Below are positions 60,660 to 62,229 of a stretch of 64,000 bases of DNA, piece after piece. The notes beneath the pieces are model-generated. The model was not told the DNA's origin, did not search any database, and saw only the letters and a program-made list of their open reading frames with translations. Positions within the stretch are counted from its first letter, which is position 1. Each line of letters starts with the position of its first letter. The DNA is taken from the NCBI GenBank assembly GCA_964016885.1, contig OZ024743.1:235042001-235106000 (forward strand), read 5' to 3'. Origin of the DNA: Eledone cirrhosa (Eukaryota). The position numbers were made by a program, and so were the translations under genes.

Positions 60660-60699
<40 letters not shown>

Positions 60700-60732
60700 A
60701 AGAACACAAGAGCGTCTACAACATCAAAAGAT

Positions 60733-60794
60733 TTTTATTGGCTAACAATGTTTCTTCCTTACGTGTAACCGTAGGGTTCATCAGAGCTATAAAA
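60733..60794 (-). ncRNA. Type I hammerhead ribozyme motif (family C, inverted copy)
   Basis: Reverse complement of 61848-61909. Confidence 0.72.
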
Positions 60795-61847
60795 GGGGTT
60801 TGATTGGTGTTATGGACTCTACCAACCAAACACCCAAGAACAAAGAGTAAAGAGAGTAAAGAGCAAAAGTAGGGGACGATAAGTCTAATTTTGGTGCGGG
60901 AGGGTGGGGTGTTGGTCCTTGTTTACTAGCTGCGGTCATCGGGGGTCGGGTGGTTAGCTGAACCATAGATGGGGTGGCGTGGATAGTATGGTGCAGAGGG
61001 TGCGCAGAGGCTACACAAACACAAAGGGCGTAGAATACATATACACATATAGCGGAGGAGAAGGTACATGAGGTAATTAGAAATGGAAAAAGAGTAATAA
61101 TAATAATCTATAATTAATAGTGTATAATAAGGCATGGGGAAGATTACACTATAATAAGGTATAAAGGTAAGAATAAGGTAAAATATAAAGGAGGATAAAA
61201 GTGGAAATAATAATAAAGATAAAAAATATATAGAGAATATATAAGGAAATATAAGCGAATATTTGGAGGGGAAAACACAATGTAAAAAAAACGATTTTTT
61301 TCAAACAATAATAAAAAATAATAAAAATATAATAATTATGGGGGGAGAAAACAGGATAGAGAAATATGATCAAGTGTGATTTGTTGAGAGAATATAGGAT
61401 GATAACTGTTGTGTCCGGTTTATACATCTTAATAATAAATAATAAACAATATGTGTATCAGAGTTGCAGAACCTTCAATTCACTTACGGGTTCAAGCCAC
61501 GTGGCATGGTCCATTGTTTATCTGTGCGTTTGTTTTTGACACCACAGCAGATGCACAAGTTTGTAAATTCCAATGCAGATAGAAGTCAATTTTTGCTCAC
61601 CCGGACATTGACCGAGGATCCAATATTCCTAGTTCAATATGTGTTTGGTGTTATTTTGTTCGCACAAAATAACATATGGTTCAGCTAACCACCCGACCCC
61701 CGATGACCGCAGCTAGTAAACAAGGACCAACACCCCACCCTCCCGCACCAAAATTAGACTTATCGTCCCCTACTTTTGCTCTTTACTCTCTTTACTCTTT
61801 GTTCTTGGGTGTTTGGTTGGTAGAGTCCATAACACCAATCAAACCCC

Positions 61848-61909
61848 TTTTATAGCTCTGATGAACCCTACGGTTACACGTAAGGAAGAAACATTGTTAG
61901 CCAATAAAA
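61848..61909 (+). ncRNA. Type I hammerhead ribozyme motif (family C)
   Basis: UUUUAU-A-GCU-CUGAUGA-A-CCCUACG-GUUACA-CGUAAGG-AA-GAAA-C-AUU-GUU-AGC-CA-AUAAAA. Stem I is 3+6 bp around an internal loop, stem II has one mismatch, stem III is minimal, and the triplet is GUU. Confidence 0.72.
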
Positions 61910-62229
61910 ATCTTTTGATGTTGTAGACGCTCTTGTGTTCTTTTTCATATATACGGCTCTGCTCCAAAGCATAGAGCTAATTATTATGCTGCCAATACCT
62001 TAACGGGACACGGGTATATAATACCTAACTCCTACTAACCTAAGTATTTATATATATATATAGATAGATAGATAGATAGTCTGCGGTATCTGGACTGGGA
62101 AGACCACAAATCAAAGAAGTACTCAATATATGGTAAAATGCAGAGTTGGTATACTAGTGGAACTACCGCAAGCTTGGTGGTTTTGGCATATATATATATG
62201 TATATAAATATATATATATATATATAAGT

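What the first reader, a model, noticed from the sequence alone, without database searches (positions are those of the whole stretch)
60696..61953. Family C: apparently perfect 272-bp inverted repeats, each with a hammerhead
Seen: no arm mismatch found by eye, so the event is probably recent. The hammerhead has an internal loop in stem I (A opposite CA) and a 6-nt loop II, the geometry needed for loop I-II tertiary contacts, but has an uncommon GUU triplet and extra As before GAAA. The spacer is strongly purine-skewed. Its minus strand contains WTMPRGLNP* (about 61484-61513), loosely like the T..P.GLN end of Penelope/Neptune GIY-YIG domains; this is a weak hint only.
Basis: partly seen in the sequence, partly recalled or inferred. 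Interest (0 to 1): 0.7.

Follow-up and report, generated by a model that had tools for sequence, protein, structure and literature searches.

The report
Head-to-head Hydra Penelope retrotransposon ends
The mirror-image repeats are two shortened copies of the end of a young Penelope-type jumping gene, joined head to head inside a TA repeat, which is an already described structure; sister copies show that one arm nearly always ends about 95 bases further out than the other, likely because the two halves are copied from two fixed start points in one insertion event.

Summary
In detail: 279-bp arms without a mismatch (60689-60967, 61675-61953), each holding a type I hammerhead motif. It is not a MITE or a stand-alone ribozyme element. 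It is two 5'-truncated copies (about 980 and 375 nt) of the 3' end of a 5.1-kb Hydra-clade Penelope-like retrotransposon (RT plus C-terminal GIY-YIG, open 849-codon frame in one copy; at least 907 exact hammerhead matches), head to head in (TA)n. The element runs on to 62049: the right arm carries a 96-nt tail. In 29 of 31 inverted pairs exactly one arm has the tail; both end points lie just 5' of similar hairpins 99 nt apart; 0 of 90 copies begin at the predicted cleavage site. GUU is ordinary here (3 of 6 published Hydra hammerheads). The window's hammerhead is a rare, weakened variant; loop II length is not conserved. WTMPRGLNP lies in the 3' UTR and scored nothing against endonuclease profiles. 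Cleavage and polymorphism remain untested or inconclusive. This scan reported the same kind of structure, tail asymmetry and hairpins before on other DNA of this genome. New family of a known kind.

The parts
60666..60695 (.). (TA)n target, left side; its last 7 bp also pair with the right arm
   Evidence: sequence
60689..61668 (-). Long copy: 5'-truncated 3' end (3' UTR and pLTR) of the Hydra-clade element, ending at start site 1, no tail
   Evidence: 98% to full-length copy L032
60689..60967 (-). Left arm of the inverted repeat (279 bp)
60733..60794 (-). Type I hammerhead motif of the left arm; predicted cut between 60744 and 60743
   Evidence: mirror of the right-arm motif
60968..61674 (-). 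Spacer: the part of the pyrimidine-rich 3' UTR that only the long copy holds; purine skew on + is its antisense
61484..61513 (-). WTMPRGLNP* peptide look-alike inside the 3' UTR; not the element's endonuclease
61649..61683 (+). Head-to-head junction: 11-bp fold-back (61649-61674) whose last 6 nt (61669-61674) are not parent sequence, next to 7 nt (61677-61683) shared by both parent positions
   Evidence: 0 of 200 shuffles give an equal local match
61675..62049 (+). Short copy: right arm (61675-61953) plus tail, ending at start site 2
   Evidence: 98.7% to the upstream pLTR and 5' UTR of L032
61848..61909 (+). Type I hammerhead motif of the right arm; predicted cut after 61898 (GUU); rare C at 61866 breaks a U-A pair at the base of stem II
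61954..62049 (+). Tail (96 nt): the first part of the 5' UTR of the next unit in a tandem
61955..61978 (+). Hairpin 1, bulged, directly 3' of start site 1; a second, similar hairpin lies 99 nt further on in read-through copies and is not in the window
62050..62079 (.). (AT)n/(AGAT)n target, right side
   Evidence: sequence

Best explanation
The locus is two 5'-truncated copies of the 3' end of a Hydra-clade Penelope-like retrotransposon lying head to head in a (TA)n run, and they were likely written in one insertion event from both sides of a cut in the target. Shown: parent anatomy (171-nt 5' UTR, 845-aa RT/GIY-YIG frame, 2.4-kb 3' UTR ending in the hammerhead), two fixed 3' end points about 95 nt apart, one used by each arm, and TA runs at both ends. 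Inferred: the GIY-YIG domain cuts both strands of (TA)n; each 3' end primes reverse transcription internally on the element RNA at a UA-rich spot just 5' of one of two similar hairpins that the protein likely binds; one cDNA ran about 980 nt from site 1, the other about 375 nt from site 2; both stopped early and their free ends were joined by microhomology with a short locally templated patch (resembling polymerase-theta end joining, recalled). The hammerheads are passengers of the pLTR: they lie on opposite strands, so they cannot form a double hammerhead on one RNA, and the template was uncut or re-ligated at that site.
For: Family: 88 matches from 40 scored of 1,449 candidates; exact hammerhead matches 724+171+7+5. 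Shared sequence continues upstream into an RT-EN frame; L080 holds pLTR, open 849-codon frame, 3' UTR and tail. Hydra motifs RW[KR], DKT, CxCx5C, CxxC, CxH are in that frame (against section 11 of PMC8557442). End points in a sample of 90 consecutive matches: 68 at site 1, 20 at +94 to +99, 2 read-through. Inverted pairs: 29 of 31 have exactly one tailed arm, none has two plain tails; p = 2e-7 against the most lenient independent model. L036 and L209 have a tail-less copy joined to an inverted tail-only stub. Neither arm can be a fold-back copy of the other, as each holds sequence the other lacks. Junctions in 26 loci: 11 overlaps of 1-9 nt, 12 inserts of 3-21 nt, 1 blunt, 2 complex; 7 of the 12 inserts have a local template beyond all 200 shuffles. 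Hairpin 2 lies 99 nt after hairpin 1 in read-through copies L032, L081, L097; the hairpin-1 pattern matches 925 places against 0 for the reversed control, with stem changes on both sides between families. 0 of 90 copies start within 5 nt of the cleavage site. In vitro precedent: the anole Poseidon protein cuts and extends both strands, starts at two internal sites that define the tail, and does not need hammerhead cleavage (PMC11167929).
Against: Most copies show no inverted partner: of 36 further loci examined only L036, L009 and L068 show one clearly, so double priming is either not obligatory or often leaves under 25 nt. Two pairs break the rule (L107, second pair of L119). 5 of 12 junction inserts have no significant local template. 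Pfam gives no reverse-transcriptase hit for the parent protein and only E = 0.01 for GIY-YIG; the assignment rests on motifs and homologues. No target-site duplication can be read in (TA)n. One RNA or two cannot be told apart: most pairs were picked by an identical hammerhead pattern in both arms. No donor was found: the open-frame copy 162 kb away is only 94% identical to the long copy.
Confidence: 0.8

Rival explanations
1. Same element, but the two arms come from two separate insertions: a second copy landed in or next to the first.
For: (TA)n runs are hit repeatedly; tail-like stubs of other families lie right beside this locus and complex nests occur (L022, L119).
Against: Independent insertions would pair tails at random (tail share 20 of 88), not 29 of 31; the junction holds no TA run; both arms carry a variant seen at only 7 places.
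Confidence: 0.05
2. One cDNA, then inversion by template switch or L1-style twin priming (recalled), where the second target strand primes at a chance internal site of the same RNA.
For: A fold-back patch and a 7-nt microhomology sit at the junction.
Against: L1-style twin priming gives an inverted, non-overlapping upstream piece; here both arms cover the same 3' end and each starts at a fixed site. A DNA fold-back cannot add the tail, which the long copy lacks.
Confidence: 0.08
3. The template is a hammerhead-cut, re-ligated RNA circle, copied around the circle from two start sites (a variant of the best explanation in which the ribozyme is active).
For: Core and helix III are invariant and stem II changes on both sides at 3 pairs across 9 sequences of about 5 families, so the fold was under selection; all six tandem copies run upstream past the cleavage site, as a circle would allow; proposed in PMC4209133.
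Against: An uncut tandem transcript explains the same pattern; the monomer fold has a predicted share of about 1e-5; position 10.1-11.1 is A.A in this family and the window variant loses the next pair too; cleavage was dispensable for the anole element.
Confidence: 0.3
4. A MITE or other DNA transposon with 279-bp terminal inverted repeats, or an assembly artefact.
For: Perfect arms; no sequencing run laid here spans the junction.
Against: Arm lengths and spans vary freely (spans 303-6,610 bp), inner ends are arbitrary, the arms are the end of an RT-encoding element, and only one arm has the tail. A read fold-back would mirror the flanks too; the flanks differ.
Confidence: 0.02

Closest known systems
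Hydra clade of C-terminal-endonuclease PLEs (Craig et al. 2021, PMC8557442; passages, section 11 and supplement search hits read), including Hydra-1_Obim and Penelope-13_HM
   Same: RW[KR], DKT, CxCx5C linker, CxxC and CxH around the last catalytic residues, (TA)n targets, type I hammerhead with short palindromic helix III near the 3' end, GUU in 3 of 6 listed motifs, inverted 5'-truncated copy, tail at one end only. The ends of the Hydra-1_Ajap and Hydra-2_Ajap consensus sequences show the same bulged hairpin by eye.
   Different: A different family from Hydra-1_Obim (other hammerhead sequence). Unit 5,087 nt with a 2.4-kb 3' UTR against 1,398-3,045 nt in the 20 Hydra rows seen; related families here also have the hammerhead 1.7-2.3 kb after the endonuclease. 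Tail 94-99 nt against 30-40 nt stated for PLEs. Strict one-tail pairing and the two hairpins were not found in the parts read.
PAc, Poseidon element of Anolis carolinensis (Frangieh et al. 2024, PMC11167929; parts 1-2 of 4 read)
   Same: Both strands cut and extended at AT-rich DNA, two internal RT start sites that define the tail, start at a stem-loop, hammerhead cleavage not needed, predicted dimer.
   Different: Other clade; start sites lie inside the ORF there and in the 5' UTR here; no strand preference for the two sites was seen in vitro, whereas genomic pairs here use one site each.
PLE pLTR hammerheads (Cervera and de la Pena 2014, PMC4209133; parts 1-2 of 4 read) and animal non-LTR retrozymes (bioRxiv 10.64898/2026.07.22.740005; part 1 of 5 read)
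   Same: Type I motif with weak palindromic helix III, extra unpaired bases beside stem II, pairs on opposite strands 100-700 bp apart already noted in Schistosoma.
   Different: Not a retrozyme: no tandem of short hammerhead monomers; the sequence is the plain truncated end of a coding element.

Membership tests
Penelope-like elements, EN+ | Single ORF with RT and GIY-YIG endonuclease | tested here: met
   Open 849-codon frame in L080; homologues at E down to 1e-146; GIY-YIG E = 0.01 in Pfam, 19.6 bits on a local profile. The window copy itself is non-coding.
Penelope-like elements, EN+ | Partial tandem forming pLTRs, 5' truncation, inverted 5'-truncated copy, optional tail | tested here: met
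   Six tandem copies; 31 inverted pairs; tail in 20 of 90 ends.
Hydra clade | RWK motif, DKT in place of DKG | tested here: met
   RWR and DKT in L032 and L080; RWR also in Hydra-1_Crog.
Hydra clade | C-terminal EN with CxCx5C linker, no CCHH, CxxC and CxH near the end | tested here: met
   CNCRRSSNC, CDLC and CQH in the frame; no cysteine pair inside the GIY..YIG core of the Neptune/Naiad kind seen.
Hydra clade | (TA)n insertion preference and canonical hammerhead | tested here: met
   TA-rich runs follow nearly all ends listed; hammerhead structure 93.7% paired across 9 sequences, covariation 2 of 500 shuffles, slid controls 22-35% (related sequences, so not a probability).
Hydra clade | Generally under 3 kb | tested here: not met
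   5,087-nt unit. A stated tendency, not a diagnostic; noted as a difference.
Hydra clade | Placement in the RT phylogeny with named Hydra families | not tested
   No labelled reference sequences were available as tool sequences; likeness to the printed Hydra proteins was judged by eye.
Active hammerhead ribozyme | Self-cleavage at NUH | not testable with these tools
   Core intact; GUU is a listed cleavable triplet, GUC and GUA the fastest (PMC3138052 passages); base of stem II has two mismatches in the window.
Neptune/Penelope-type GIY-YIG relic in the spacer | Profile match extending beyond the PxGLN word | tested here: inconclusive
   No match with Pfam, 14 PLE proteins (best E 0.33) or a 29-domain profile, but no GLN-ending domain was in those sets; the word P.G[LM]N arises in 120 of 20,000 shuffled spacers.
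MITE / DNA transposon | Fixed terminal inverted repeats and unit length | tested here: not met
   Spans 303-6,610 bp with free inner ends; most copies have one arm only.
Non-LTR retrozyme | Tandem of short non-coding hammerhead monomers | tested here: not met
   Direct tandems found are 5-kb coding units.

The most novel reading that the evidence does not exclude
Hydra-clade elements insert by an obligately asymmetric double priming: a protein dimer bound to two similar RNA hairpins 99 nt apart primes one cDNA from each strand of a cut in (TA)n, one per hairpin, on an uncut or circular RNA, and host end joining fuses the two cDNAs. The conserved bulged hairpin would be the clade's RT-loading signal, and this young family, with long-UTR copies that keep an open frame, would be a ready in vitro system.
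Probability: 0.55. Interest if true: 0.55.

Novelty: new member of a known kind. Interest (0 to 1): 0.3.

Why it matters
The locus itself is an ordinary dead stub. The family statistics bear on an open question, how Penelope-like elements make their inverted ends and one-sided tail, which PMC8557442 names as needing mechanistic work. They give sharp predictions: two hairpin-defined start sites, one per strand, and a template that is not left cut by the hammerhead. A read-through transcript of such a locus would be predicted to form a 279-bp double-stranded stem that buries the hammerhead.

Tried and rejected
Rfam at gathering score: no match in the window. Pfam: no RT family for the parent protein. 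The open-frame copy L080, 162 kb away and sharing the rare hammerhead variant, was considered as donor and rejected at 94% identity; L087 is identical over 363 nt but is itself a stub. Polymorphism: 8 runs listed, no RNA holder listed. Laying X1, X4, X5, X6 on 59900-61670 and X1, X5, X7, X8 on 61600-61760 showed no contig or read across the junction; X1 matches the left flank without difference but its contig stops at the microsatellite; a hole proves nothing, so presence/absence is open, and the empty site could not be tested with both flanks at once. A profile of GLN-ending endonucleases could not be built, as 0 of 29 domains had that end. The first hammerhead tally failed on a faulty pattern and counted places twice; the first tail caller missed mutated tails and gave 26 of 31, corrected by alignment to 29 of 31. 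Shared differences between arms were too mixed with alignment artefacts to tell one RNA from two. No complex or structure prediction was run. Literature searches found no paper describing the strict one-tail pairing or the twin hairpins; subscription papers, Repbase reports and bioRxiv supplements were not visible, and the PMC8557442 supplement was seen only through two searches.

Full report
Observation. The arms pair without a mismatch over 279 bp, 60689-60967 with 61675-61953. Both hold CUGAUGA, a bulged stem II with a 6-nt loop, AA-GAAA, a short palindromic helix III, GUU and a stem I with A opposite CA. Rfam does not score it. The spacer is purine-rich on +.

Extent. A search of the own genome (3.0 Gb; a homologue is named from Octopus bimaculoides, so a cephalopod host is likely but was not determined) gave 88 matches from 40 scored candidates, most covering query bases 1-988 in one piece. 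So the left arm and the spacer are one stretch of a repeat family read on the minus strand, and the right arm is a second, shorter copy of its end. Family ends are followed either by (TA)n or by one fixed sequence that also follows the right arm in the window. The short copy matches a full-length element for 378 nt, into its 5' UTR: the insertion runs to 62049.

Parent. [quoted passage not shown] L080 has pLTR, 5' UTR, an open frame of 849 codons, a 2,381-nt 3' UTR and a tail; several more copies keep frames of 700-900 codons. The protein has RWR, DKT, CxCx5C, CxxC and CxH, the features that define the Hydra clade in PMC8557442 section 11, and inserts into (TA)n. It is not Hydra-1_Obim and is about twice as long as the 20 Hydra entries seen in File S1. 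Related families at 65-73% endonuclease identity also carry long 3' UTRs.

Hammerhead. Across 9 sequences from this and related families the core, the proximal three pairs of stem I and helix III never vary, and stem II changes on both sides at 3 pairs; 93.7% of cells pair, against 22-35% for slid controls (related sequences, so only indicative). The 10.1-11.1 position is unpaired in 5 of 9, which accounts for the extra As; unpaired bases there also show in published Hydra motifs. The window is the only one of the 9 that also loses the next pair, by a U-to-C change found at 7 places in the genome, against 171 for the U form with the same loop, 5 for an A form and 724 for the form with a 4-nt loop, which went with GUA in the copies read. 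In 90 consecutive copies the triplet is GUA in 64 and GUU in 23; 3 of 6 published Hydra motifs have GUU. The monomer fold has a predicted share near 1e-5 in all three forms, in line with the weak, dimer- or protein-dependent activity reported for animal PLE hammerheads. The two motifs are on opposite strands and cannot complete each other on one RNA. None of 90 copies starts within 5 nt of the cleavage site, although every cDNA must cross it some 55 nt after start site 1: the templates were uncut or re-ligated.

Two start sites, one per arm. Of 90 consecutive ends, 68 stop at site 1, 20 at +94 to +99 and 2 read through. I examined 31 head-to-head pairs in 30 loci: all 23 minus/plus neighbours within 7 kb among the 200 places listed, one further pair inside one of those loci, and 7 loci met otherwise, the window among them. 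Exactly one arm has the tail in 29; the exceptions are L107 (tail plus read-through) and the second pair of L119 (neither) (p = 2e-7 against an even chance). The choice of pairs did not use the tail. Each site lies just 5' of a bulged hairpin that starts CGGCUC and ends GAGCU; the two are 99 nt apart in read-through copies. I had hairpin 1 and the asymmetry before consulting earlier notes; the lead to a second hairpin came from them and was then checked. The hairpin-1 pattern hits 925 places and none for the reversed control, with GCU/AGC exchanged for GUC/GAC in another family, and a like hairpin is visible at the ends of two sea-cucumber consensus sequences. Against an obligatory rule, most single copies show no inverted partner.

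Junction. The long copy follows the parent to 61668, then 6 nt complete an 11-bp fold-back, then the short copy begins; 7 nt at 61677-61683 occur at both parent positions. Among 26 loci, 11 junctions overlap by 1-9 nt, 12 have inserts of 3-21 nt, 1 is blunt and 2 are complex; 7 of 12 inserts are copied from within 80 nt. Microhomology with templated inserts is the mark of polymerase-theta end joining (recalled, not checked in a paper).

Age. No difference in 279 bp bounds arm divergence below 1.1%; 3 of 31 pairs are as clean in their last 270-310 nt. The long copy is identical to L087 over 363 nt and 99.3% to L043 over 840 nt. Young is supported; polymorphic is open.

The GLN hint. The peptide is 1,556 nt into the 3' UTR; Hydra endonucleases end in LN.RSE..S.C.H instead. 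Frame-breaking indels occur around it among copies, including a 10-nt deletion in the window copy, and profile and BLAST tests were blank. The word is rare in shuffles (120 of 20,000), and no GLN-ending domain was on hand, so an old captured relic is unlikely but not excluded.

Verdict. A new family of a known clade in a known architecture (PMC8557442 Fig. 2 legend). What goes beyond the papers read is the strict pairing of one tailed with one tail-less arm, the twin hairpins and the absence of ends at the cleavage site; this scan has noted the first two before in other families of this genome, which is not independent support. Papers seen: PMC8557442 passages, section 11, supplement hits; PMC11167929 and PMC4209133 parts 1-2 of 4; bioRxiv 10.64898/2026.07.22.740005 part 1 of 5; PMC3138052 passages; others as search listings only.

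Noticed in passing
window 62080-62190 and 62228-62300, minus strand: Two short pieces between microsatellites right of the insertion carry ACTC..ATTGAGTA look-alikes of the tail hairpin (62146, 62289): likely tail-only stubs of other Hydra-type families in the same TA-rich patch.
   Followed up: partly
window 62312-62386: A near-perfect hairpin of about 75 nt; half of it recurs near 30777 on the minus strand, so it is a repeat of its own.
   Followed up: no
window 4546-about 10500: Tandem array of at least 118 copies of a 48-bp unit, about 93% alike, 51% GC.
   Followed up: no
window 16849, 24261 (+) and 23082 (-): Three near-identical copies of one 130-nt or longer stretch, two direct and one inverted, around the large AT-rich inverted region 19679-25400.
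   Followed up: no
L080 (G000:C4:235262500-235272499): Full-length family member with an open 849-codon frame 162 kb from the window, directly after a 449-codon frame of another Penelope-like element with a different C-terminal endonuclease.
   Followed up: partly
L089-L095: At least four related Hydra families with 1.7-2.3 kb between endonuclease and hammerhead; their UTRs share no sequence with this family except the last 150 nt.
   Followed up: partly
family position 36 nt before site 1 (L031, L040, L047, L081, L099, L109): The same T-to-G change occurs in only one arm or one pLTR of six loci from both subfamilies: a likely copying hot spot, which would fit each arm being reverse-transcribed on its own.
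   Followed up: partly
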